Source: an uncultured Gammaproteobacteria bacterium
GTDB taxonomy: Bacteria; Patescibacteriota; Microgenomatia; Levybacterales; UBA12049
DNA length: 64,000 bases
Direction of reading: 5' to 3'
Assembly (NCBI GenBank): GCA_964416445.1
Contig: CAYQEE010000008.1
Location: forward strand, 6,450 to 70,449
Below, piece after piece: positions 5,735 to 63,757 of the stretch. Position 1 is the stretch's first letter, and every line of letters starts with the position of its first letter. The notes beneath the pieces were generated by a model. The model did no database searches, was not told the DNA's origin, and was given only the letters and a program-made list of their open reading frames with translations. The position numbers and the translations under genes were made by a program.

Positions 5735-5803
5735 TTCTTTTTCAATACAAATTGTGAAATTTTTAGTTGAGTCTCGCTTGTCTATCAAGTATAATTAAGA
5801 ATA

Positions 5804-6982
5804 ATGGCAAGAAAAAAAATATCTGAATTTACTGCGAAGTCTCTCTTGTTTTCTCGTCTTGGTATACCATATACAGGAGTGTCTCTTATTGGTACTGATA
5901 CTGTTACTCCCTCAAACTTTGACAAAGATAAACTCTATGTTGTGAAAGTCGATGAAGGTGTTAAAGGAAGGATGAAAAAAGGATTAGTATCACTAAAGGT
6001 TCCTGCTACGGAGATACGAAATAAAATACAAGAATTGAGTGAAAAAGGATATCATCGATTTCTTGTCGAAGAATTTATTCCCCATGAAGCATTCCAAGAA
6101 AAATATTTTTCACTCGAAAGAACACGAGAAGGAATAACAATGTATTATTCTGATAAAGGAGGAATTGATATTGAATCTAACCAACAGACGGTTCAGAAGA
6201 CAATACTTGATAAAAGTACGACTGAATCAGTAACTTCTTTTTTAGGATTATCTCTTACTGCATTTCAAAAAATCATTACTGTTTTTAATGAACTCTATTT
6301 CTCTTTTCTTGAAGTTAATCCTCTTGTTATTACTGAAGACGCGATATATTTTTTAGATCTTGCTGTGGAGGTGGATAGTAGTGCGGAATTTTTTGTGAAA
6401 GATGGGTGGACAGCACTTGATTTTGTTGGGGATGAGCTTTTCGGCCAAAAAACAGAAGAAGAGAAAAATATTATTGCATTGAAAGCAAAAAGCCAAGCAG
6501 CATTTAAATTAGACATGCTTAATCCTCAAGGATCAATATGGATGTTATTATCAGGTGGAGGTGCAAGTATTGTCCTTGCTGATGAGGCATATAATCAAGG
6601 ACGAGGTACTGATGTTGCAAATTATGGAGAATATAGCGGTAATCCGAATCAAGAAGAAACATATATTTACACCAAAAATATTTTAAAGTTATTGCTAAAA
6701 TCACCGGCGCCAAAAAAAGTTTTAATTATTGGTGGCGGAGTTGCTAACTTTACTGATATTAAAACAACATTTGGAGGAGTCATCCGAGCTTTGGATGAAG
6801 TAAAAGATGATCTTGCAAAGCAACATGTCAAAGTATTTGTTCGTCGAGGAGGACCAAATCAGGAAGCAGGATTGCATGCAATGAAAATCTTTTTACAAAA
6901 TGCGCAAATTTTGGGAGGAGTATGGGATCCGTCACTCGTCTTGTCTGATGTTATAACAAAAGCGAAAGAGGAACTTTCGTAA
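5804..6982 (+). CDS. aclB: ATP-citrate lyase small (ATP-grasp) subunit
   Basis: 392 aa. N-terminus MARKKISEFTAKSLL matches the ACLY N-terminus (MSAKAISEQTGKELL). Segments KKVLIIGGGVANFTDIKTTFGGVIRAL and VFVRRGGPNQEAGL align to human ACLY residues in its N-terminal ATP-grasp part. Confidence 0.8.
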   Translation: MARKKISEFTAKSLLFSRLGIPYTGVSLIGTDTVTPSNFDKDKLYVVKVDEGVKGRMKKGLVSLKVPATEIRNKIQELSEKGYHRFLVEEFIPHEAFQEKYFSLERTREGITMYYSDKGGIDIESNQQTVQKTILDKSTTESVTSFLGLSLTAFQKIITVFNELYFSFLEVNPLVITEDAIYFLDLAVEVDSSAEFFVKDGWTALDFVGDELFGQKTEEEKNIIALKAKSQAAFKLDMLNPQGSIWMLLSGGGASIVLADEAYNQGRGTDVANYGEYSGNPNQEETYIYTKNILKLLLKSPAPKKVLIIGGGVANFTDIKTTFGGVIRALDEVKDDLAKQHVKVFVRRGGPNQEAGLHAMKIFLQNAQILGGVWDPSLVLSDVITKAKEELS

Positions 6983-24534: not shown

Positions 24535-24551
24535 GATATAATATAACTAAT

Positions 24552-27500
24552 ATGTTTAGCGGTTTTTTTAATAATAAAAGACATGAGGATCAGGATTATC
24601 AACAAGTTCCTGTTTATACTGGACAACCGCAACCTATTTCGCCAACAAATCAACCGCAACAACCACAAAGCTCTGGAATTGGATCAACAATGCAACCAGC
24701 AATGCGTGAAGAAGTTACGGCACTCTCTCACTTAGATCCTCGCGCTGTTGAAGTCCTCAATGTTGCGCAGCAAGAAACTTCTCGAATAAAGCAAGCATTT
24801 ATTGAACCAGACCAACTGCTCTTTGCATTACTCTTTGATAAAGATATTTTTAAATTACTTGAACAATTTAATTTAAAAGTTGCTGATGTCTCGAGAGAAA
24901 TTCAAGAGAAAGAGAAAATAGGTACTTTTTTAGGACAACCAACGCTTTCCCAAGATACCAAAAAAATATTTGGGCAGGCATATGGATTAGTAAAAACTCG
25001 AAGTGCTGAATTTATTACTCCAGAAGACTTGCTTATTTCTCTCATGGACGCGAATGTTCCCGCTTCAGCGATGTTGCAAGCGCAAGGACTTGGAAAAGAG
25101 AAAATAGAGGAAAAACTCAATAAATCAGGGAGTACCTATACTGTTGTTAAAAAATCATTTCTAGATAAATTTGGTATCGATTTGACCGAAGCAGCTCGAT
25201 CTGGTGCGCTTGATCCGGTGAGTGAACGAGATAAAGAAGTAGAACGAGTCATTCATATTCTTTTACGAAGAATTAAAAATAATCCGATAATTATTGGAGA
25301 AGCGGGAGTGGGTAAAACTGCTATTGTTGAGGGGCTTGCGCAAATGATCGTACAAGGAAGAGTTCCGGAAGATTTAAAAAACAAACGAATTATTCAAATT
25401 GATGTGGCCTCATTAGTTGCAGGAGCATCGCACCGAGGTGAATTTGAAGACCGTTTGCGAAGTGTTATTAAAGAAGCACAAGCATCTTCTGGTCAAGTCA
25501 TTATTTTTATTGATGAAATACATACCTTAATGGGAACCGGTGATTCAGATGGTGCTCTTGATGCTTCAAATATTATAAAACCATTTCTTGCTCGAGGTCA
25601 GTTGCAGATTATTGGAAGCACAACTACAATAGAGTATCGTCATTATTTTGAAAAAGATAAAGCATTTGCTCGACGGTTTCAAACAGTACTTTGCGAAGAA
25701 CCATCAGAAGAGTCTGCTATTAAAATGATTGATATTTTGAAAGCAAAATATGAAAGATTTCATAAGGTTACATTAACCTCAGAAGCAATTGCAGCAGCAG
25801 TTAAACTCTCGAAAAGGTATATCGGAGAACGGTATCTTCCCGATAAAGCAGTTGATGTTATTGATGAAGCAGCGGCTGATGTGAAGCTTCGTAATAATAC
25901 AGGCAATCAAAAAGGAAATGAAGTGCGAAAAGAAGACATTGATAAAGTTATTAGTAATTGGACTGGAATTCCCGTATCAAAATTGACTGAGAATGAAAGT
26001 GAAAAATTGCTTCATTTAGAGGATATTATTCACAAGCGAATGATAGATCAAGAAAGAGCCGTTAAGTCTGTTGCAGAAGCAGTACGAAGAGGAAGAATTG
26101 GTCTTGCAAATGTCATGAGACCAATTGCATCATTTATTTTCCTTGGACCATCGGGAACGGGAAAAACAGAACTCGCAAAGACTCTTGCTGAAATTCTTTT
26201 TGGTAAAGAGGATGCAATGATCCGTTTGGATATGAGTGAATATATGGAAAAGCATGAAGTGGCAAAATTAATTGGTGCACCTCCAGGATATGTTGGTTAC
26301 GAAGAAGGAGGACAGTTAACGGAAGCGGTACGTATGAAACCATATTCTGTCGTTCTCCTTGATGAAGTAGAAAAAGCTCATCCCGATGTCTTTAATATTT
26401 TATTACAGTTATTGGAAGACGGGAGACTTACGGATAATAAAGGGAATACGATCTCATTTAAAAATACCATTATTATTTGTACTTCAAATATTGGTAGTGC
26501 ATTAATTCAACAATATTTGCAATCTGATATCAGTGCGAAAACAGTTTCTCAAGATACGGCAAGTGATAGCGTAACAAAAAGAGAACAACAAGGTGATTCA
26601 AATGAAAAAAAGGCTCTTGATCCAAATCAAGCACAGAAACCTATCCAAGATAAAGAAGCAAAACAAAAAGAATTGCAGCAATTAGTAAGTGGTGAATTAC
26701 ATAAATTTTTTAGACCGGAGCTTATCAATCGTTTTGATGAGGTTATTATTTTTGAGCCGCTCGGAAGAGAAGTTATGGTAGATATAACAAAATTGCGTAT
26801 TCAGTCTACCCGAAAATTACTTCTTGAGCAAAATATTGATATAGAACTTACTCAGAAAGCGCTTGAAGAACTTGCACAAGAAGGCTATGATCCTGCGTAT
26901 GGAGCTCGGCCACTTCGTCGTTTGGTCCAATCAACTATCGAAACTCCGATTGCCAGTCTTATCTTAGGGAAAAAGTTTGTTGCAGGAGATACGATTGCAA
27001 TTGATTATGATGCAAAAGAGGAAAAATTTGTCTTTACTAAATCGAATAAACCTGCAGGATCGGTTGCTGGAGCACAAGCTCAAGAAGAATTTCCTGTGCT
27101 TCGGGCTGTTTTACGAAAACTTGCTAATCCAAATGTGATTACCGATATGACAGAACATGGTCAGTATTTAGCGTTACGTCAGACAATGGATCAAGCAAGC
27201 AAACAGGGAGATATGTATGCTACCTGGCTATTGAATATTGCGAGTTCTCTTGTACAGACTGAACAAACGAATCCTGCACAGGCAGTGTTAGATCTTAAAG
27301 GAGTGCTCCAAAAATTACTGAATCCTTCGAGCCTTCTTGACCCGAATGAATATCAACAATATGTTACCTATAAAGATCGGTTAACACAGGAAAAAGCAAA
27401 AGGTGATATGCTTGCGAGCGCAATGCTCGATAGTTTACTTTTGGTTGTTTCTCAGCAACCTGCACCGCAACCTATGCAACCGGTTTCGCAACAGCAGGTT

Positions 27501-32831: not shown

Positions 32832-32848
32832 ATGATATAATTGCTTGT

Positions 32849-33436
32849 ATGAGTTATTTAATTCCTGGAAAAACGGTTTTTCGGTTTACAACAAAAGACC
32901 ATCAAGAAGCGGTAATTCGGTATCCTCGTTGGGAAGATCTTGACGCTTTACTTTCGTATATTAACGTACTTTCTGAAGAAGATATTTACCTTACTTTTTC
33001 AGGAGAGACAGTAACAAAAGAAGGAGAAATGTATTACCTTACGGAAACATTTAAATCAATCGAGCGAGGCGATATGGTAAATCTCTGTTGCTACATCAAT
33101 AATATCCTTGTTGGAACATGTACAATTTCTCGAGATGTACAATCAAGAAAAAGAAGTTATCATATCGGTATTTTTGGTATTACTGTTTCGAAACAGTTTC
33201 GTCGAAGTGGATTGGGCGAGCAACTTGCTCGGATTACAATCGCTGAAGCACAGCGCACTATTGTAGGACTGAAACTGCTTATTTTAAGTGTCTACAGTCC
33301 TAATATTGCTGCGCAAAGTTTATATAAAAAGCTGGGATTTAAAACTGCAGGAATCGTACCGAAAGGAGTATGGTATAAAGGTACTTATATAGATGAAATT
33401 AAAATGTATTTACCACTCCAAGAGTATATGTTATGA
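32849..33436 (+). CDS. GNAT family N-acetyltransferase
   Basis: FRRSGLGEQLARITIAEAQ acetyl-CoA binding motif A. 195 aa. Confidence 0.7.
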   Translation: MSYLIPGKTVFRFTTKDHQEAVIRYPRWEDLDALLSYINVLSEEDIYLTFSGETVTKEGEMYYLTETFKSIERGDMVNLCCYINNILVGTCTISRDVQSRKRSYHIGIFGITVSKQFRRSGLGEQLARITIAEAQRTIVGLKLLILSVYSPNIAAQSLYKKLGFKTAGIVPKGVWYKGTYIDEIKMYLPLQEYML

Positions 33437-46308: not shown

Positions 46309-47493
46309 ATGGCGGATACAAAATTTCATCGAAACAAACCACATTTAAATATTGGAACCATTGGTCATGTTGATCATGGTAAAACAACAACTACTGCAGC
46401 AATTGCAACAGTACTTGCAAAACAAGGATTAGCAACCGCAAAAAAATACGAAGATATAGATAATGCTCCCGAGGAAAGAGCTCGTGGAGTTACTATTAAT
46501 ATTTCCCACATTGAATACGAAACTGCAAAAAGACATTATGCACATATTGATGCTCCTGGTCATGCAGATTACATTAAGAACATGATTACCGGGGCAGCAC
46601 AAATGGATGGAGCGATTCTGGTAGTCTCAGCACCAGATGGACCAATGCCTCAAACACGGGAACATATTCTCTTAGCTCGACAAGTAGGAGTTCCTGCAAT
46701 TGTTGTCTATCTTAATAAATGTGATATGGTTCAAGATCCAGAGCTTCTTGATCTTGTCGAAATGGAAGTTCGAGAGTTGTTGACCAAATATCAATATCCA
46801 GGAAATGATGTACCCATAATTCGGGGATCTTCTCTGAAAGCACTTGAAGGTGATGCTGAATATGAAAAGAAGATTATTGAACTTATGGATGCTGTTGATA
46901 GTTATATTCCAACACCAGTTCGAGAAACAGATAAACCATTCTTAATGCCGGTAGAAGATGTTTTCTCAATTAAAGGACGAGGAACAGTAGTAACAGGAAG
47001 AATTGAAAGAGGAACAGTTAAAATTAACGAAGCGGTAGAAATCGTTGGAATGAAAGCAACTCAGCAAACAGTTGTTACGGGAGTTGAAATGTTCAGAAAA
47101 CAGCTCGATGAAGGTCAAGCAGGAGATAATGTTGGTCTTTTAGTTCGAGGTATTGAAAAAAGTCAAGTAGAACGAGGACAAGTTTTAGCTAAACCAGGTT
47201 CAATTACTCCACACACAGAGTTTGAAGCAGAAGTATACATTTTAGCAAAAGAAGAGGGTGGAAGACATACTCCATTCTTTACAGGTTATCGTCCGCAATT
47301 TTATATTCGAACAACTGATGTCACAGGTAACGTTACGCTTCCTCAAGGGGTAGAAATGGTTATGCCAGGTGACAATACAAAAATGAATGTAAAGCTTATC
47401 GTTCCCGTTGCTCTTGAAGATGGTCTTCGGTTTGCAATCAGAGAAGGTGGCAAGACAGTCGGAGCAGGAGTAATTACAAAAATTATTGCATAA
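46309..47493 (+). CDS. tuf: elongation factor Tu
   Basis: [21 protein letters not shown] and the full EF-Tu length (394 aa). Confidence 0.95.
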
Positions 47494-47513: not shown

Positions 47514-47538
47514 TATCCGCCTATATGGCGGTTTTTTT
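47514..47538 (+). terminator. intrinsic terminator after tuf
   Basis: CCGCC-TATAT-GGCGG hairpin followed by a T7 run, 21 nt after the tuf stop. Confidence 0.7.
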
Positions 47539-47584
47539 ATCTAGAGCACTTTAAATTTATCATTGGGAGTTATATAATAACATT

Positions 47585-47893
47585 ATGCCAAAAGGAAGAA
47601 TTCGAGTACGATTAAAAAGTTATGACGCACGAGTAATCGATACGTGCTGTCAGCAGATCCTTGACACTGCCATTAGAACGGGTGCTAAAGTTATTGGCCC
47701 AGTACCACTTCCAACTGATAGAAGCGTTTACACCGTGAATAAATCACCTTTTGTTGATAAAAACGCTCGAGATCACTTTGAAATTCGAATACATAAACGA
47801 TTAATTGATATTGTCAGTCCTACAGAAAAAACGATGGATAGTCTCTCTCATCTCGAACTTCCAGCCGGAGTTGATGTTGAAATCCGCATGTAA
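47585..47893 (+). CDS. rpsJ: 30S ribosomal protein S10
   Basis: IRVRLKSYD...LPTDRSVYTVNKSPFVDKNARDHFEIRIHKRLIDI, canonical S10. Confidence 0.95.
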   Translation: MPKGRIRVRLKSYDARVIDTCCQQILDTAIRTGAKVIGPVPLPTDRSVYTVNKSPFVDKNARDHFEIRIHKRLIDIVSPTEKTMDSLSHLELPAGVDVEIRM

Positions 47894-47940
47894 ACCTCAT
47901 AATTTCCAAGAGAATTGTACTCGTGTGATAAAATAGTCGC

Positions 47941-49119
47941 GTGCAAGGAGAACGTTTACGCTGGTATCAGCCTATAATTAGGGATTTGCAAGGTAATAGA
48001 GGGTTACAGTGGCAATACCAGTTGAAAATTCTTAAGGAGAATAAAACGGAACTAACTGCACCCAGAATAATTCAGTTTCGTAATTATGGCATCGAATCTC
48101 CCCTTATTGCCCGTTCGTTGATTGCGTTATCACAGTTGCACGTCTTGCCAATTGATAGCTTAGAAGTACGTCTCCAGCGTTATCAGAGTTTAAGACAAAG
48201 TCATCCGGAAATTTTATTAGAAGAACAGAACAAGCCGATTAGTACTTTTTTGCAGCATACCCAACCATATCAGGATCCAACGCTTATGAGCAGGTTTTCT
48301 GAATCTGCAAAGTTAACAGGCGAGACGTTAAGAACTCTTGGGATTGCAGCTTACCCTGACTATATAAGCTTTTTTGATACGTTAGCTTCGTTACCTGATC
48401 CTCGGCATATGCAACAAGCTTTGCAAACTATTGATTCATTCGTGTCTTTTTATACCATCTCTCGCCATGTTGTTCTCAACGTCTGTGAAGCAGTTACTAA
48501 AAAATTTGCTAAACGATTTCACAACCCATTTGTCTATACTGCTCGCCGGCGAGCACAGTTTAAAAAAGAGTTATCTCATAATGATGATCCTGAGGCGCAA
48601 TGGAGAAAGATAACATATGGTCAGGGAAAACTAGTGAGACGTGGATTTATGATCTATCTTGACTCAGTGGCACATTTTAAGCGTGATTATGAGTCACTTT
48701 TCAGTTTAGCAAACCCTCGTCGAAATCAACAGCAGAATCTGTCAAAAGAGCTACAAAAAGCACTCCATGCAATCTATATTGGTGAAATTTATAGTGGTAT
48801 TCAGTTTCTTTTTCAAGCAAATTTAGAAGGGCGTTTGCCTGCCCAAAATGATAGAGTACAAGAACGAAGCTATTCAACGTATAGAGAGGGAGAATCTGAG
48901 GAACAACCACTGATAGAGGAATGGGTACGTCGTGTACGTCAACAAGGTGGAAGGCAGCGAAACCTCAAAGCTGTAGAAGATGATGAAGCGCGAAGTGTTG
49001 TGTTCCCTACAGTTGCATTAGGAAATGACATGTCTACGCTTGGTATGTGTCCTTTTTTTGAGGTAGGATGGGAACATGAACCGTTTGGTAGTGGCGATAT
49101 TCCAAATTCTTTGGACTAA
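47941..49119 (+). CDS. hypothetical protein inserted between rpsJ and rplC
   Basis: 392 aa ORF, Arg/Gln-rich, no recognisable motif. Occupies the rpsJ-rplC junction, which is normally contiguous. Confidence 0.5.
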   Translation: MQGERLRWYQPIIRDLQGNRGLQWQYQLKILKENKTELTAPRIIQFRNYGIESPLIARSLIALSQLHVLPIDSLEVRLQRYQSLRQSHPEILLEEQNKPISTFLQHTQPYQDPTLMSRFSESAKLTGETLRTLGIAAYPDYISFFDTLASLPDPRHMQQALQTIDSFVSFYTISRHVVLNVCEAVTKKFAKRFHNPFVYTARRRAQFKKELSHNDDPEAQWRKITYGQGKLVRRGFMIYLDSVAHFKRDYESLFSLANPRRNQQQNLSKELQKALHAIYIGEIYSGIQFLFQANLEGRLPAQNDRVQERSYSTYREGESEEQPLIEEWVRRVRQQGGRQRNLKAVEDDEARSVVFPTVALGNDMSTLGMCPFFEVGWEHEPFGSGDIPNSLD

Positions 49120-49204
49120 ACCCTGTCCGAGAAAGGAAAATATAACCCGAAATGAGAAGATTAATTACTCCTTTTTGATTGAGAAGTTCACGTCTGCCTG
49201 CCTC

Positions 49205-49233
49205 TTGCGATCTTCTTACTACTTTGATACAAT
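49205..49233 (+). promoter_or_regulatory. candidate promoter for the rplC-led ribosomal operon
   Basis: TTGCGA, 17-nt spacer, TACAAT. About 85 nt upstream of the attenuator-like hairpin. Confidence 0.35.
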
Positions 49234-49318
49234 TATTTCCACGTACCATGATTCAAAAAATCAGGGGAGAAAGATTTAAAAAGTAAGCGAATCGGGACCA
49301 AATTTCTGTAATGAGAAG

Positions 49319-49341
49319 AGTGGCTCGACAGCCACTTTTTT
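49319..49341 (+). terminator. terminator/attenuator hairpin 13 nt upstream of the rplC start codon
   Basis: AGTGGCT-CGAC-AGCCACT followed by a T6 run. Confidence 0.55.
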
Positions 49342-49354
49342 GTTGTTAAATACT

Positions 49355-50077
49355 ATGATACATGCACTAGTTGGAAGAAAACAAACACAAACGCAAAAGT
49401 TTCTAACAGATGGAACTCGAATTCCTGTTACCTTTATTGAAGTACAGCAAAATCCCGTTCTTATGGTAAAAACCGCAGATAAACACGGGTATGTTGCTGT
49501 CCAAGTAGGGTATGGGAAACGAAAACACGGCAATAAAGCAGAATTAGGACATGCAAAAAAAGGAGCAAATTTAGAATATGCTCCTTATTTTTTGTCAGAA
49601 ATTCGAATGGCGAATGATGTCAAAGTAGATGAATTGCCAAAAATCGGAGAGACCATATCTGCACCAAGTGTTTTTGAACCAGGTGATCTTGTAAATGTAA
49701 CGGGAACTTCAAAAGGAAAAGGATTTGCAGGAGGAGTAAAACGGTATCATTTTAAAGGGGGACCGAGAACTCACGGTCAGTCAGATCGAGAAAGAGCTCC
49801 CGGTTCTATTGGTCAAACAACAACACCAGGAAGAGTATATAAAGGAAAACGAATGGCTGGTAAGATGGGATTTGAACAAGTCACGGTACAAAATCTTGAA
49901 GTTGTTGCCGTTTCAGATGCAGGTATTGAGCTGAAAGGCTTGGTTCCAGGATTTCCCGGATCATACATTATCATTAAAAAAGTTGGTAAAAACAAAAAGT
50001 TTATTCCACTTCTTATTGAAGAAAAAATAAAAACACCGAGTTCTGCAAATGAACCAGTAGCAGAAACAGCAGCATAA
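49355..50077 (+). CDS. rplC: 50S ribosomal protein L3
   Basis: MIHALVGRKQTQTQ...GKGFAGGVKRYHFKGGPRTHGQS. ATG at 49355 (ORF-track TTG at 49340 is just upstream). Confidence 0.9.
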   Translation: MIHALVGRKQTQTQKFLTDGTRIPVTFIEVQQNPVLMVKTADKHGYVAVQVGYGKRKHGNKAELGHAKKGANLEYAPYFLSEIRMANDVKVDELPKIGETISAPSVFEPGDLVNVTGTSKGKGFAGGVKRYHFKGGPRTHGQSDRERAPGSIGQTTTPGRVYKGKRMAGKMGFEQVTVQNLEVVAVSDAGIELKGLVPGFPGSYIIIKKVGKNKKFIPLLIEEKIKTPSSANEPVAETAA

Positions 50078-50087
50078 GGAGACTATT

Positions 50088-50879
50088 ATGGCAAATACAA
50101 AAAAAACAGAAACAATAAAACCGAAAGTGACAAAAACACCTAAAAAGGTAGTCAAAAAAGTAGACGAAGAGAAAAAAGTTAGTAACGTAGCAATTCCCCA
50201 GAAAACTGTTTCTCAACAATCAGTACAAGGTGGTTTGCATGTTAACCTGCTTGATACGACAGGAAATGTTGTTGGTACCATTTCGTTACCAGAGAAAATT
50301 TTTGGAGTCCAAGTAAATTCACAACTTATTGCCCAAGCTGTACGAGTGTTTTTAGTAAATCAAAGACAAGGTACTGCACGGACATTGACTCGTGGAGAAG
50401 TAGATGGTTCAACAAGAAAAATATATCGCCAAAAAGGTACAGGAAGAGCTCGACACGGAGGAATTCGTGCACCGCTTTTTGTTAAAGGAGGTATTGCCCA
50501 CGGACCAAAACTGAAAGATTATTCTTTAACAATGCCAAAAAAGATGAAGCGAGCAGCGCTTTTCTCAGCTTTATCAGCAAAAGTAAAAGATGGCGAAATT
50601 AAAGTAGTGACAGGGCTTGAAGCACTTGAAGTAAAAACAAAAGCATTTTCCCATGCATTTGATACGTGGGGTATAGCTCAAAAGAAACGAAATGTTTTAT
50701 TTGTCTTACCAAATGATATGGAAAATATCTATCGAGGGGTCCGAAATATGGCTGGTGTAACGATAACTACAGCACAACGATTAAATACCTATGAGGTATT
50801 AAAACATAATGCAATTATTATGGTTAAAGAATCTATTGATACGATCGATAAAGTTTTTGGAAAGAAAGAAGAAAAATAA
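50088..50879 (+). CDS. rplD: 50S ribosomal protein L4 with Lys-rich N-terminal extension
   Basis: L4 core (GTGRARHGGIRAPLFVKGG) preceded by a roughly 45 aa Lys-rich extension. Confidence 0.9.
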   Translation: MANTKKTETIKPKVTKTPKKVVKKVDEEKKVSNVAIPQKTVSQQSVQGGLHVNLLDTTGNVVGTISLPEKIFGVQVNSQLIAQAVRVFLVNQRQGTARTLTRGEVDGSTRKIYRQKGTGRARHGGIRAPLFVKGGIAHGPKLKDYSLTMPKKMKRAALFSALSAKVKDGEIKVVTGLEALEVKTKAFSHAFDTWGIAQKKRNVLFVLPNDMENIYRGVRNMAGVTITTAQRLNTYEVLKHNAIIMVKESIDTIDKVFGKKEEK

Positions 50880-62220: not shown

Positions 62221-62823
62221 ATGGCACGATATACTGGACCAAAACATAGAATTGCACGAAGAGAAGGAGTAAATATTCTCGATAAAACATCGACTTCATT
62301 ACAACGAAGGTTAAATACACCTCCCGGAGTTCATGGTGCAAAGCGAAAAAGAAAATTATCAGAATTTGGTGTGCAACTTCGTGAGAAACAAAAAGCAAAA
62401 GCTCTCTATGGTGTATTAGAAAAACAATTTAAAAATATGGTACAAATCGTTTCGAAACAAAAAGGGAATACGGGAGAATTACTTATTGCATCACTTGAGA
62501 GACGCCTTGATAATGTTGTTTATCGACTAGGATTTGCGCAATCAAGATATCATTCTCGTCAACTGGTAAGTCATGGCCACGTCTTAGTTAATGGAAAAAA
62601 ATTAAGTATCCCTTCTTATCTTGTTCAAGAAGGAGATATTATTTCGCTTGACGCTAAAATGCAAAGTAATGTTCATGTTACAAAACTATTGAGTGAAGAA
62701 AAAATTCTCTTACCATTTTTAGAGAAAAAAGGTACCGTTGGTAAGTTTATTCGGTTACCAAAACTTTCTGAAATTGAAACACCTTTTGATACGAGATTGA
62801 TTATTGAATATTATTCTAGGTAA
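62221..62823 (+). CDS. rpsD: 30S ribosomal protein S4
   Basis: ATG at 62221. MARYTGPKHRIARREG...S4 domain. The ORF-track upstream extension overlaps rpsK. Confidence 0.9.
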   Translation: MARYTGPKHRIARREGVNILDKTSTSLQRRLNTPPGVHGAKRKRKLSEFGVQLREKQKAKALYGVLEKQFKNMVQIVSKQKGNTGELLIASLERRLDNVVYRLGFAQSRYHSRQLVSHGHVLVNGKKLSIPSYLVQEGDIISLDAKMQSNVHVTKLLSEEKILLPFLEKKGTVGKFIRLPKLSEIETPFDTRLIIEYYSR

Positions 62824-62839
62824 TGATATAATACCTGTT

Positions 62840-63757
62840 ATGATTGATCCGATATTTACTGTTAAAGAAACAAAAACCACTGGCGTCTATGCACAATATA
62901 TTATTGGGCCTTTAGAGCCAGGTTATGGATATACACTTGGACACGCAATGCGTCGTATTCTTCTCACCTCAATTCCAGGTTCAGCGGTTACTTCAGTTCG
63001 GATTAACGGAGTTAAACATCGATTCTCACAATTACCAGGATTAAAAGAAAATATTGTTGATTTTCTTTTGAATCTAAAAGGATTATCCGTTCGACTTACT
63101 GGTAGTAAAAAATCAGCAACATTAAAACTTTCTGTAAAAGGACCAAAAGAGATCACTGCGGGCGATATTGAAGCAAGTGATGGTGTTGAAGTTATCAATA
63201 AAGACCATTATCTTGGTTATCTTTCAGATAAAAAGTTAGATATGGAAATGACTGTTGAAGAAGGTTTTGGTTATTCGTTAGCTGAAGAAAGAAACACGGA
63301 GGAAGTGGGTTCAATTCCTACAGATGCAATTTTTACACCAATTCAGCGGGTAAATTATACGGTGAGAGCTACCCGAGTTGGCCGAAGAACAAACTTCGAT
63401 GAATTAGTGTTAGAAATATGGACAAACGGTTCAATTACACCAAAAGAATCGCTTGATGAAACAGCAAAAATTCTAGCTGCATACTTTACACAAGTTTATC
63501 AGCCAAAAAGTACTGAACCAACAGAAAGTGTTGCTATTAGTCCATCAATTTCTGATGAACTCTTAAAAATGACAGTTGATGAATTAGATTTACCAACAAG
63601 AATTTATAACAGTCTTCGAAATGGGGGAATTGAAACTGTTGGTCAATTGCTCGGTACTCCAAGAAAAGATCTCGTTGCAATGCGAAATATGGGCACTAAG
63701 TCAATTGCAGTTATTGAAGAAAAACTTCGCGAAAAAGGTATTTCCTTATCAGTATAA
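62840..63757 (+). CDS. rpoA: DNA-directed RNA polymerase subunit alpha
   Basis: ATG at 62840. GPLEPGYGYTLGHAMRRILL matches the alpha NTD consensus. CTD LDLPTRIYNSLRNGGIETVGQL. Confidence 0.9.
   Translation: MIDPIFTVKETKTTGVYAQYIIGPLEPGYGYTLGHAMRRILLTSIPGSAVTSVRINGVKHRFSQLPGLKENIVDFLLNLKGLSVRLTGSKKSATLKLSVKGPKEITAGDIEASDGVEVINKDHYLGYLSDKKLDMEMTVEEGFGYSLAEERNTEEVGSIPTDAIFTPIQRVNYTVRATRVGRRTNFDELVLEIWTNGSITPKESLDETAKILAAYFTQVYQPKSTEPTESVAISPSISDELLKMTVDELDLPTRIYNSLRNGGIETVGQLLGTPRKDLVAMRNMGTKSIAVIEEKLREKGISLSV

What the first reader, a model, noticed from the sequence alone, without database searches (positions are those of the whole stretch)
47941..49354. Unknown 392-aa ORF plus attenuator-like leader inserted between rpsJ and rplC
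rpsJ and rplC are almost universally adjacent. Here a 1.2-kb Arg/Gln-rich ORF with no recognisable motif separates them. It is followed by a 235-nt non-coding stretch containing a good promoter (TTGCGA-17-TACAAT at 49205-33). A terminator hairpin (49319-41) ends 13 nt before the rplC ATG. The arrangement resembles an L4-type attenuator leader now controlling rplC onward. The inserted ORF could be a new ribosome-associated factor or a selfish insertion.
Basis: seen in the sequence. Interest (0 to 1): 0.55.

Follow-up and report, generated by a model that had tools for sequence, protein, structure and literature searches.

The report
Conserved rplC attenuator leader, orphan gene upstream
In this candidate-phyla (Microgenomates/Levybacteria-type) bacterium, the rpsJ-rplC gap is a normal operon boundary: it holds a lineage-specific gene of unknown function, followed by an apparently undescribed regulatory leader (promoter, tiny ORF, switchable terminator) that precedes the main ribosomal-protein operon in most related genomes.

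Summary

The framing as an insertion into an adjacent gene pair is wrong for this lineage. In all 29 Microgenomates loci compared, rpsJ and rplC lie 140-3458 nt apart. Thirteen of them carry other, unrelated genes in the gap: NUDIX, peptide deformylase, MGMT-like, FtsJ-like methyltransferase, acyltransferase and others.

The ORF is a real gene with native codon usage. It belongs to a tiny, very divergent, unannotated protein family. The other members sit in contexts unrelated to ribosomal genes, and none lies at this junction.

The leader is the more interesting part:
- A covariance model built from 23 other species finds window 49248-49341 as the only significant hit in 64 kb.
- The terminator stem covaries.
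- A 6-12-codon mini-ORF starts 1-16 nt after the -10 box in 25 of 27 leaders.
- The region around the mini-ORF stop is specifically complementary to that leader's own terminator, forming an antiterminator.
- No Rfam family matches.

Most likely it is a transcription attenuator for rplC onward. The sensor, mini-ORF translation or an r-protein, is unproven.

The parts
46309..47493 (+). tuf (EF-Tu), upstream neighbour
   Evidence: ORF of 394 aa. Pfam GTP_EFTU on the identical gene in L091.
47517..47538 (+). Intrinsic terminator after tuf (CCGCC-tatat-GGCGG followed by T7)
   Evidence: Terminator scan.
47550..47578 (+). rpsJ promoter, TTTAAA-17-TATAAT. The -10 box ends 6 nt before the rpsJ ATG, implying a leaderless mRNA (inference).
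   Evidence: Promoter scan, 10/12 matches. A TATAAT 6-9 nt before the ATG is common in this window.
47585..47893 (+). rpsJ (S10), 102 aa
   Evidence: Pfam Ribosomal_S10 on the identical gene.
47941..49119 (+). ORFX: a 392-aa protein of unknown function. It belongs to a small divergent family, and at this position it occurs only in this species.
   Evidence: Native codon usage and a coding-frame signal. No family or fold match.
49205..49233 (+). Promoter of the rplC operon: -35 TTGCGA at 49205-49210, TG-extended -10 TACAAT at 49228-49233
   Evidence: The same TTGCxx-17-TAxAAT occurs at the same relative position in most related loci.
49248..49286 (+). Leader mini-ORF, MIQKIRGERFKK followed by a stop. 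Its ATG lies 14 nt after the -10 hexamer and there is no SD.
   Evidence: 25 of 27 leaders have an ATG 1-16 nt after the -10 that opens a 4-12 codon ORF (4 codons only in L008; 11 or 12 codons in 15 of the 27 leaders).
49264..49269 (+). GGGGAG, a degenerate copy of the family's conserved GGAGG(U) motif
   Evidence: Alignments A2 and A4. The motif sits in all three frames relative to the mini-ORF.
49278..49300 (+). 5' strand of the predicted antiterminator; it overlaps the mini-ORF stop codon at 49284-49286
   Evidence: MFE folds. Cognate versus non-cognate complementarity test.
49303..49318 (+). Small central hairpin (UUUCU/AGAAG), kept in both alternative folds
   Evidence: Equivalent hairpins are read by eye in L003, L005 and L015.
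49318..49341 (+). Terminator hairpin GAGUGGCU-cgac-AGCCACUU plus U-run. Positions 49321-49340 form the 3' strand of the alternative fold.
   Evidence: 93.7% of cells paired, 5 of 8 pairs with compensatory changes, 0 of 500 shuffles reaching the observed covariation score.
49355..50077 (+). rplC (L3), 240 aa. It is the first gene of the rplC-rplD-rplW-rplB-rpsS... cluster and has no SD.

Best explanation
In Microgenomates/Levybacteria-type CPR bacteria, the classical S10 gene cluster is split after rpsJ. rpsJ has its own promoter directly after the tuf terminator. rplC and the genes after it have a separate promoter followed by a conserved leader of about 95 nt.

The DNA between the end of rpsJ and that promoter is a variable slot that holds different accessory genes in different lineages. 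In this genome it holds ORFX. ORFX is a real, natively adapted, cytoplasmic-looking protein from a very small and fast-diverging family of unknown function. It is incidental cargo, not part of the ribosomal operon's machinery.

The leader (49234-49354) works as a transcription attenuator. Every rplC transcript must pass a hairpin plus U-run terminator, because no room for a promoter remains between the U-run and the ATG. That terminator competes with an alternative antiterminator fold of almost equal stability.

My preferred trigger, at about 0.4-0.45 probability, is translation of the near-leaderless mini-ORF. Its last codons and stop lie on the 5' strand of the antiterminator. A ribosome on the mini-ORF therefore blocks the antiterminator and lets the terminator form. 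When few ribosomes initiate, the antiterminator forms and the r-protein operon is read through, giving negative feedback on ribosome supply.

What is shown: the anatomy, its conservation, the covariation and the bistability. What is inferred: termination in vivo, translation of the mini-ORF, and the direction of control.
For: Operon split and variable slot:
- The S10-to-L3 gap is 140-3458 nt in 29 of 29 Microgenomates loci, against roughly 6-44 nt in most Dehalococcoidia.
- The gap contents differ between loci and are unrelated to each other: bPH_2, NUDIX (twice), AAA_28 plus MGMT DNA-binding domain, Pep_deformylase (twice), Acyltransferase, FtsJ, and several ORFs with no Pfam hit.
- No ORFX relative is found at any of these junctions.

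ORFX is a real gene:
- It is a 392-codon open frame in a sequence of about 39% GC.
- Its codon-usage L1 distance is 0.394, against 0.378 +/- 0.073 for the window's genes. Its in-frame log-likelihood advantage is 0.557, against a gene mean of 0.598.
- Seven full-length distant homologues share N- to C-terminal motifs: W[YH]xP, GITNP..A, D.F..FY, SGI, and G.CPFF..GW.

The leader is a conserved family:
- Model R1 was built from 23 other species with the window excluded. It hits window 49248-49341 at 35.7 bits (E = 2e-4) over the full model. The next best hit in the 64 kb, both strands, scores 19.4 bits.
- In 464 kb of loci, all 26 hits lie on the + strand upstream of rplC. Twenty-five end within about 45 nt of it; the L019 hit ends about 140 nt upstream. 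The hits include three loci not used in training: L019 (60 bits), L016 and L018.

Terminator:
- All 27 leaders have a GC-rich stem plus U-run, ending 3-40 nt before the rplC ATG.
- Compensatory changes occur in 5 of 6 pairs on A2 and 5 of 8 pairs on A4. On A4, 41 cells change on both sides, against 13 +/- 5 in shuffles.

Antiterminator:
- The segment around the mini-ORF stop pairs with its own terminator better than with other leaders' terminators: -13.95 versus -10.05 kcal/mol. None of 50,000 permutations reached the observed value (22 representatives).
- In one clade, 93% of cells are paired, against 40-63% when the partner columns are slid.
- In 16 of 27 leaders the MFE fold lacks the terminator. 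For nine leaders the two states were printed, and they lie within 0-3 kcal/mol of each other; in the window they are -20.0 and -18.1.

Mini-ORF:
- 25 of 27 leaders have one. It is 11 codons long in 11 divergent loci and 12 codons in the window, L003, L015 and L011, and the stop lies in or next to the antiterminator strand.
- Only 15 of 56 genes in the window have even a loose SD match. Several genes have a TATAAT 6-9 nt before the ATG, so SD-less or leaderless initiation looks normal here.

No Rfam 15 family matches the leader.
Against: - There are no transcript data, so the TSS, the terminated short RNA and read-through are all predicted only.
- The fold of the window's own leader is not significantly more stable than shuffles (z = -1.27).
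- The window's antiterminator complementarity is only moderate. Its cognate terminator ranks 5th of 22, and in the first test its z-score was -0.7.
- Within one clade the antiterminator shows only one compensatory pair. The evidence therefore rests mainly on comparison between clades, where relatedness inflates the statistics.
- A mini-ORF of about 12 codons is near the chance expectation for length in AT-rich sequence. It has no regulatory codon runs and little amino-acid conservation.
- L021 and L027 lack an ATG start (L027 has GTG), and L016 has only two codons. In L004 and L007 the first ATG lies only 1-3 nt after the -10 box.
- The start lies 10-16 nt after the -10 box rather than the 6-9 nt seen for genes that look leaderless in this genome.
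- The GGAGG(U) motif is conserved at the nucleotide level in all three frames. The mini-ORF model does not explain this, and it could instead be a protein- or 30S-binding site.
- ORFX function remains unknown. One homologue pair sits next to an ABC-F-type ATPase, so a link to translation is not excluded.
Confidence: 0.55

Rival explanations
1. The leader is an autogenous r-protein attenuator. A protein encoded in the operon binds the leader RNA and shifts the balance between terminator and antiterminator. L4 is the likeliest by analogy with E. coli; L3 is an alternative. The binding site could be the conserved GGAGG(U) region or the apical part of the terminator. On this reading the mini-ORF is incidental.
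For: The conserved promoter-leader-terminator anatomy and the bistable folds fit this model as well as they fit the preferred one. The GGAGG(U) motif is conserved as RNA rather than as codons. From my own knowledge, protein-binding leaders are the usual control for r-protein operons: the E. coli S10 leader with L4, and the B. subtilis L20 leader. An L4 r-leader candidate upstream of rplC is reported in Archaeoglobi (PMC7247131). The sister-like Chloroflexota carry a strongly covarying structured RNA at the same junction.
Against: Apart from GGAGG and the terminator, the leader has little conserved sequence or structured core, at 0.6 bits per position. No rRNA mimicry has been identified, and no Rfam r-leader matches. 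This model does not explain the positional conservation of the ATG or the fixed 11-12 codon length.
Confidence: 0.28
2. There is no regulation. The hairpin plus U-run is simply the leaky terminator of the upstream unit (rpsJ with or without cargo). Alternatively, the promoter-to-terminator unit is a small RNA or micro-peptide gene, and rplC is expressed by constitutive read-through.
For: No terminator is visible between ORFX and the leader, so the hairpin may also stop upstream transcripts. A promoter, about 100 nt of RNA and a terminator is also the anatomy of an sRNA gene.
Against: A promoter placed immediately upstream of a terminator that blocks the essential operon, conserved across about 26 loci, is hard to explain without conditional termination. 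So is a cognate-specific alternative pairing of equal energy. In most leaders too little sequence lies between the U-run and the rplC ATG for another promoter: 3-33 nt in 26 of the 27, 40 nt in L029. The untrained locus L019 has about 140 nt there.
Confidence: 0.1
3. ORFX is a new ribosome- or translation-associated factor, recruited next to rpsJ and co-expressed with it.
For: ORFX runs in the same direction as rpsJ, 47 nt downstream, with no terminator between them. It is Arg/Gln-rich. In L089, two tandem paralogues follow an ABC-F-type ATPase with two ABC_tran domains. Some cargo genes at this slot in other lineages are translation-related (def, FtsJ-like).
Against: ORFX is absent from 29 of 29 related junctions. 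The other six family loci have neighbours unrelated to translation, such as LysM, Colicin_V/CAP and cohesin. Only eight sequences of the family were found among 1.84 billion representatives. There is no RNA-binding or known fold.
Confidence: 0.1
4. ORFX is a selfish or mobile insertion (phage, transposon or defence cargo), or a decaying pseudogene.
For: It occurs only in this species and lies in a variable slot. Its GC3 is slightly raised, at 0.31 against 0.24 +/- 0.04 for the window's genes.
Against: No direct or inverted repeats flank it. There is no integrase or transposase nearby, and no PHROG, PADLOC or viral-contig match. GC content and codon usage are native. The frame is intact over 392 codons and aligns end to end with its homologues.
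Confidence: 0.04

Closest known systems
E. coli S10 operon leader (L4-mediated, NusA-dependent transcription attenuation)
   Same: Both are leaders carrying an intrinsic terminator hairpin that gates transcription of the gene cluster containing rplC, rplD, rplW, rplB and so on. Both presumably balance r-protein synthesis.
   Different: The E. coli leader lies upstream of rpsJ; this one lies downstream of rpsJ, after an operon split. Here there is a mini-ORF and an explicit antiterminator. No sequence or structure similarity was detected (no Rfam match). L4 involvement was not tested. According to PMC3616713 (abstract seen), most E. coli r-protein regulatory RNAs are confined to Gammaproteobacteria.
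Leader-peptide transcription attenuators (trp, his, pheA, pyrBI) and ribosome-mediated attenuators of antibiotic-resistance genes
   Same: All have a promoter-proximal short ORF whose 3' end overlaps the 5' strand of an antiterminator that competes with an intrinsic terminator. Ribosome position would decide the outcome.
   Different: This leader has no runs of regulatory codons and no SD, and its 5' UTR is very short. There is no anti-antiterminator (1:2) element. The regulated genes are ribosomal proteins. The proposed signal is initiation or ribosome availability rather than the charging of one tRNA.
L4 r-leader candidate of Archaeoglobi and other r-leaders (Eckert & Weinberg 2020, PMC7247131)
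   Same: It is a cis-regulatory RNA directly upstream of rplC-rplD-rplW-rplB in a lineage where S10 is not the first gene of that operon.
   Different: It comes from a different domain of life and is a different motif. No covariance-model match was found here. It is not reported to have a terminator or mini-ORF architecture.
Structured RNA between rpsJ and rplC in Anaerolineae/Chloroflexia (seen here, alignment A5)
   Same: It occupies the same junction and plays the same implied role as a leader of the rplC operon. It too is absent from Rfam.
   Different: It is a well-folded element of about 120 nt with two domains and 21 covarying pairs, followed by a normal SD. It has no U-run terminator and no mini-ORF, so it looks like a protein-binding translational operator.

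Membership tests
Intrinsic (Rho-independent) terminator | GC-rich stem-loop followed immediately by a U-tract | tested here: met
   The stem is 8 bp (GAGUGGCU/AGCCACUU) with loop CGAC, followed by U6 at 49336-49341. All 27 leaders have one. The stem covaries.
Intrinsic (Rho-independent) terminator | Produces 3' ends in vivo or in vitro | not testable with these tools
   No transcript data are available.
Leader-peptide transcription attenuator | Short ORF close to the transcription start | tested here: met
   The ATG lies 14 nt after the -10 box and the ORF is 12 codons long. 25 of 27 leaders have an equivalent ORF.
Leader-peptide transcription attenuator | Antiterminator mutually exclusive with the terminator, supported by comparison between species | tested here: met
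   Cognate pairing is -13.95 kcal/mol against -10.05 for non-cognate, and none of 50,000 permutations reached the observed value. 16 of 27 MFE folds lack the terminator. Within one clade only one pair shows a compensatory change.
Leader-peptide transcription attenuator | ORF overlaps the strand whose occupancy decides the fold | tested here: met
   The stop codon at 49284-49286 lies inside the antiterminator 5' strand at 49278-49300. In other clades the stop forms part of GCUACAUAG.
Leader-peptide transcription attenuator | Regulatory codons (runs of codons for the sensed amino acid) | tested here: not met
   No codon runs and no conserved peptide are seen. Examples are MIQKIRGERFKK, MIRQMEVIEAT and MSKLLMYFNNT.
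Leader-peptide transcription attenuator | The ORF is actually translated | not testable with these tools
   Support is indirect only: SD-less and leaderless starts are common in this genome.
E. coli-type S10 leader (L4 attenuator) | Located upstream of rpsJ as the leader of the whole S10 operon | tested here: not met
   This leader lies between rpsJ (plus ORFX) and rplC. rpsJ has its own promoter 6 nt upstream of its ATG.
E. coli-type S10 leader (L4 attenuator) | L4 binding and NusA-dependent pausing or termination | not testable with these tools
   This needs biochemistry.
Any Rfam 15 family (including described r-protein leaders) | Covariance-model match at or near the gathering score | tested here: not met
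   The best hit over the leader is STnc370 at 31.9 bits against a gathering score of 54, and it rests on the terminator alone. Nothing reaches gathering in the window or in five related loci.
Microgenomates rplC leader (family defined here, model R1) | Full-length match to a model built without the window, located immediately upstream of rplC | tested here: met
   Window 49248-49341 scores 35.7 bits (E = 2e-4) over model positions 1-94 and is the only significant hit in 64 kb.
Known protein families (Pfam, NCBIfam, PHROGs, PADLOC, PDB) for ORFX | Significant profile or fold match | tested here: not met
   Searches give nothing significant. The AF2 model has pLDDT 60, and the best Foldseek PDB match has E = 0.19 and TM below 0.2.
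Mobile-element insertion | Flanking direct or inverted repeats, a recombinase, or foreign composition | tested here: not met

The most novel reading that the evidence does not exclude
The Microgenomates rplC leader is a direct sensor of ribosome availability. Free ribosomes, or 30S subunits captured by the conserved GGAGG element, initiate on a near-leaderless mini-ORF and in doing so prevent the antiterminator from forming. Transcription of the main ribosomal-protein operon is therefore shut off when ribosomes are in excess and switched on when they are scarce or stalled. This would be a protein-independent homeostat for ribosome synthesis in reduced CPR genomes.
Probability: 0.3. Interest if true: 0.8.

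Novelty: new variant of a known kind. Interest (0 to 1): 0.55.

Why it matters
Almost nothing is known about how CPR/Patescibacteria, with their reduced genomes and unusual ribosomes, regulate ribosome synthesis. All described r-protein leaders come from other phyla.

This work adds three things:
- A conserved and apparently uncatalogued attenuator in front of rplC to rpsQ and beyond in Microgenomates.
- A second, strongly covarying RNA at the same junction in Chloroflexota.
- Evidence that the textbook S10 operon is split after rpsJ in these lineages. From my own knowledge, that arrangement resembles archaeal operon organisation.

If the mini-ORF is the sensor, this would be leader-peptide attenuation applied to ribosome homeostasis.

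The 392-aa ORF is cargo in a variable slot, not a disruption of an operon.

Tried and rejected
- **More ORFX relatives (word-index searches).** With ORFX alone the search returned only the query's own cluster. With the family profile it added only the partial P0009.
- **Fold search.** The afdb50 library was unavailable. Foldseek against PDB and a profile search against PDB gave only noise.
- **dN/dS for ORFX.** This was impossible. The only other contigs are the same strain, with 1 SNP in 9179 nt.
- **Spurious hits in the exhaustive search.** P0005 and P0007 are long repetitive proteins matched over short stretches, so I left them out of the family.
- **Mini-ORF as a copy of the L3 N-terminus.** L003 has MIHPVLGG and window L3 begins MIHALVGR, which suggested mimicry or duplication. 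The resemblance is confined to one or two loci, so I dropped the idea.
- **GGAGG as a displaced SD.** No start codon lies 5-10 nt downstream of the motif in any clade (checked by reading the sequences).
- **A promoter for rplC between the U-run and the ATG.** The scan gives TCGACA-18-AATACT at 49325-49354. Its -10 box abuts the ATG, and relatives have only 3-30 nt in that space. Rejected.
- **The leader elsewhere.** R1 found no second copy in the window, and no copy in the Chloroflexi or ORFX-homologue loci.
- **Literature.** Searches found no description of a CPR rplC leader or of the S10/L3 split.
Full report
**1. Observation**

Between rpsJ (47585-47893) and rplC (ATG at 49355) lie a 392-codon ORF (47941-49119, GTG start) and a 235-nt spacer. 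The protein contains 8.7% Arg and 8.4% Gln, against 3.7% and 5.1% in the other proteins of the window.

The promoter TTGCGA-17-TACAAT at 49205-49233 is confirmed, with TG before the -10 box. The hairpin GAGTGGCT-cgac-AGCCACTT (49318-49337) and its U-run to 49341 end 13 nt before the rplC ATG. A lone promoter match means little here: 18 sites were found in the 5 kb scanned, against 15 expected by chance. Its weight comes from conservation across species, described in section 4.

**2. Taxon and junction**

The closest L3 relatives in the species-representative genome set are Microgenomates/Levybacteria-type CPR MAGs, at no more than 64% identity. I located tuf, S10, L3 and L4 in 82 loci by tblastn.

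- In all 29 Microgenomates loci that contain both genes, the distance from the end of rpsJ to the start of rplC is 140-3458 nt.
- Thirteen of these loci have gaps of 640 nt or more that contain ORFs.
- Most Dehalococcoidia show the classical spacing of about 6-44 nt.
- Anaerolineae/Chloroflexia show spacings of 208-430 nt.

The gap ORFs are unrelated to one another and to ORFX:

| Locus | Gap content |
|---|---|
| L003 | bPH_2 |
| L015, L025 | NUDIX |
| L017 | AAA_28 plus MGMT DNA-binding domain |
| L019, L026 | Peptide deformylase |
| L027 | Acyltransferase |
| L031 | FtsJ-like methyltransferase |
| Several others | ORFs with no Pfam hit |

The premise that the two genes are almost universally adjacent therefore fails in this lineage. 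The junction is a variable slot.

In the window, tuf is followed by a terminator (47517-47538). rpsJ has its own promoter, TTTAAA-17-TATAAT, which ends 6 nt before its ATG.

**3. ORFX**

ORFX is a real gene.
- A 392-codon open frame at about 39% GC cannot arise by chance (my own estimate, roughly e^-25).
- Its codon usage is typical of the window. The L1 distance is 0.394, against 0.378 +/- 0.073 for the other genes.
- The annotated frame is strongly preferred, with a log-likelihood advantage of 0.557 against a gene mean of 0.598. GC3 is slightly high at 0.31.
- GC content shows no step at its borders.

No library recognises it.
- Pfam, NCBIfam, PHROGs and PADLOC give nothing significant.
- A word-index search of 5.8 billion proteins found only the same species. 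Three Logan contigs carry it at the same junction, and one of them differs by 1 SNP in 9179 nt.
- Exhaustive HMMER over 1.84 billion representatives found nine hits. Seven of them (P0003, P0004, P0006, P0008-P0011; 219-396 aa; E from 1e-11 to 6e-4) align end to end and share motifs from the N-terminal W[YH]xP to the C-terminal G.CPFF..GW. The other two are repeat-protein artefacts.

The homologues lie on short, low-GC metagenomic contigs. Their neighbours are unrelated to ribosomal genes: LysM, Colicin_V/CAP, cohesin and F420 ligase. One locus has two tandem paralogues after an ABC-F-like ATPase.

An AlphaFold model built from the 8-sequence alignment is mediocre, at pLDDT 60. It shows a small N-terminal beta unit, a helical body and a disordered tail. 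It has no PDB neighbour, the best match having E = 0.19.

There are no flanking repeats and no relatives among viral contigs.

My conclusion is that ORFX is a lineage-specific accessory gene of unknown function. The data do not support calling it a ribosome factor, and it shows none of the marks of a mobile element. A TG-extended -10 box (TGATAAAAT, 47926-47934) lies 6 nt before the GTG and may give ORFX its own leaderless transcript. That is an inference from the sequence.

**4. The leader is conserved**

The 150 nt upstream of rplC show the same layout in almost every Microgenomates locus:
- a promoter TTGC(A/G)x-17-TA(T/C)AAT;
- an ATG shortly after the -10 box;
- usually a GGAGG(U) motif;
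- a small central hairpin;
- a GC-rich hairpin plus U-run ending 3-40 nt before the rplC ATG.

I built a covariance model from 23 leaders, excluding the window (A3, R1).
- It finds window 49248-49341 over the full model length at 35.7 bits (E = 2e-4).
- The next best hit in 64 kb, both strands and with filters off, scores 19.4 bits.
- Across 49 loci (464 kb), all 26 hits are on the + strand upstream of rplC. All but L019, which lies about 140 nt upstream, end within about 45 nt of the gene.
- The hits include three loci that were not used in training.
- None falls in the Chloroflexi loci or in the ORFX-homologue loci.

The leader therefore predates ORFX and is independent of it. Relatives with gaps of only 140-300 nt have the leader and nothing else in the gap.

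No Rfam 15 family matches. The literature I could search lists only an Archaeoglobi L4 leader upstream of rplC and a Firmicutes S10 leader (PMC7247131). A CPR ribosome paper does not mention the split (PMC9297842).

**5. Structure of the leader**

*Terminator.* RNAalifold predicts the stem, with compensatory changes in 5 of 6 pairs. On the model-based alignment, 93.7% of cells are paired. Forty-one cells change on both sides, against 13.2 +/- 5.1 in shuffles (0 of 500 reached the observed value). Slid controls give 22-59% pairing.

*Alternative fold.* In each leader, the segment around the end of the mini-ORF is complementary to the apical part of that leader's own terminator.
- Examples are GCUACAUAG with UAUGUAGUC, CCUAAG with CUUAGG, CGAAGUC with GACUUCG, CAUCAG with CUGAUG, and, in the window, UCGGG with CUCGA.
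- Cognate duplexes average -13.95 kcal/mol, against -10.05 for non-cognate combinations. None of 50,000 permutations reached this value with 22 representatives. An earlier variant of the test gave the same result.
- Within one clade of ten sequences the 16-pair helix is 93% paired, against 40-63% in slid controls. It has only one compensatory pair because the sequences vary so little.
- In 16 of 27 leaders the MFE fold is the alternative one. For the nine leaders printed, the two states differ by 0-3 kcal/mol. In the window they are -20.0 and -18.1. That is what a switch should look like.
- On its own, the window's leader is not significantly more stable than shuffles (z = -1.27).

**6. The mini-ORF**

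In 25 of 27 leaders an ATG lies 1-16 nt after the -10 hexamer, mostly 10-16 nt.
- It opens an ORF of 4-12 codons.
- The ORF is 11 codons long in 11 divergent loci, and 12 codons in the window, L003, L015 and L011.
- The stop lies within or next to the antiterminator 5' strand.
- The untrained locus L019 has MIRQQEVIEAT, which matches L022's MIRQMEVIEAT.
- In the window the ORF is MIQKIRGERFKK (49248-49286), and its stop sits inside the antiterminator strand at 49278-49300.

The genome rarely uses SD sequences. Only 15 of 56 genes have even a loose match. Several genes have a TATAAT 6-9 nt before the ATG. SD-less and leaderless initiation is therefore plausible, and rplC itself has no SD.

There are four caveats:
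- The ORF length is close to the chance expectation in AT-rich sequence.
- The peptide is not conserved and has no codon runs.
- A few loci lack a proper ORF.
- GGAGG(U) is conserved in all three reading frames, so it acts as RNA. It could be a 30S or protein contact, or the base of the antiterminator helix.

**7. Mechanism**

The promoter is followed by a terminator, and in most leaders too little sequence remains before rplC for another promoter. Expression of rplC and the genes after it must therefore come from read-through. Conditional termination is the economical reading, and the cognate-specific antiterminator supports it.

I favour ribosome occupancy of the mini-ORF as the signal, at about 0.4-0.45. 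Translation would block the antiterminator and cause termination, giving negative feedback on ribosome supply. An operon-encoded r-protein binding the leader is the main rival, at about 0.28. Constitutive leaky termination or an sRNA gene is less likely, at about 0.1. None of these can be settled without transcript or biochemical data.

**8. Comparison with known systems and verdict**

Functionally the leader resembles the E. coli S10/L4 attenuator and leader-peptide attenuators. It is a member of neither.
- It lies in the wrong position for the S10 leader and has no homology to it.
- It has no regulatory codons.

I classify it as a new variant of a known kind: a transcription attenuator or r-protein leader. 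ORFX is an unremarkable orphan-family gene in a variable slot.

**9. Seen in passing**

Anaerolineae/Chloroflexia carry a structured RNA of about 120 nt at the same junction. It has 29 predicted pairs, 21 of them with compensatory changes, and it too is absent from Rfam.

Noticed in passing
L040, L043, L046, L050, L052-L054, L059-L064, L067, L068, L070, L072-L075, L077 (about 175 nt upstream of rplC; alignment A5): Anaerolineae/Chloroflexia have a 208-430 nt spacer between rpsJ and rplC. It contains a strongly conserved structured RNA of about 120 nt, with conserved GGCAGUnUAAGAGC...CUGACUG and the hairpin GGGAUGAUGCAGCC..GCCCAGGCUGACAGUCCC, followed by an AGGAGA SD. RNAalifold predicts 29 pairs, 21 with compensatory changes. 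No Rfam 15 family matches. It is probably an undescribed r-protein leader of Chloroflexota.
   Followed up: partly
window, whole (for example 47573-47587, 5790-5806, 24535-24554, 32832-32851, 62823-62842): Most genes lack an SD: only 15 of 56 have even a loose match. Several first genes have a TATAAT 6-9 nt upstream of the ATG, so leaderless mRNAs appear to be common in this genome. Clear SDs are mostly confined to internal genes of the r-protein cluster.
   Followed up: partly
L089:365-4097: Two tandem paralogues of the ORFX family (360 and 356 aa, 33% identical to each other) follow, in the same orientation, a 494-aa ABC-F-like ATPase with two ABC_tran domains. This is the only hint of a link between the family and translation.
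   Followed up: no
window 49555-49594 (inside rplC): A terminator-like hairpin that reads the same in both directions lies inside the rplC coding region: AAAAAAAGGAGCA-(12 nt)-TGCTCCTTATTTTTT. It gave weak matches to Plastid-psbA-2 on both strands. It could be an internal attenuator, an antisense terminator or chance.
   Followed up: no
L003:3865-4140 (-) and L006:5693-5990 (-): Two relatives carry, in the rpsJ-rplC slot and on the opposite strand, a homologous small basic protein of about 90 aa with a predicted membrane segment (…HHRI.FY.LGA.G.I..WRGVW…). It has no Pfam hit.
   Followed up: no
window 50088-50879 (rplD): L4 is 263 aa long and has a Lys-rich N-terminal extension of about 45 residues. 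tblastn matches to relatives begin at residues 31-63.
   Followed up: no
L019:5771-5859 versus rplC at about 6001: In this locus the leader (60 bits) lies about 140 nt upstream of rplC rather than within 3-40 nt of it, so extra sequence sits between the terminator and the gene.
   Followed up: no
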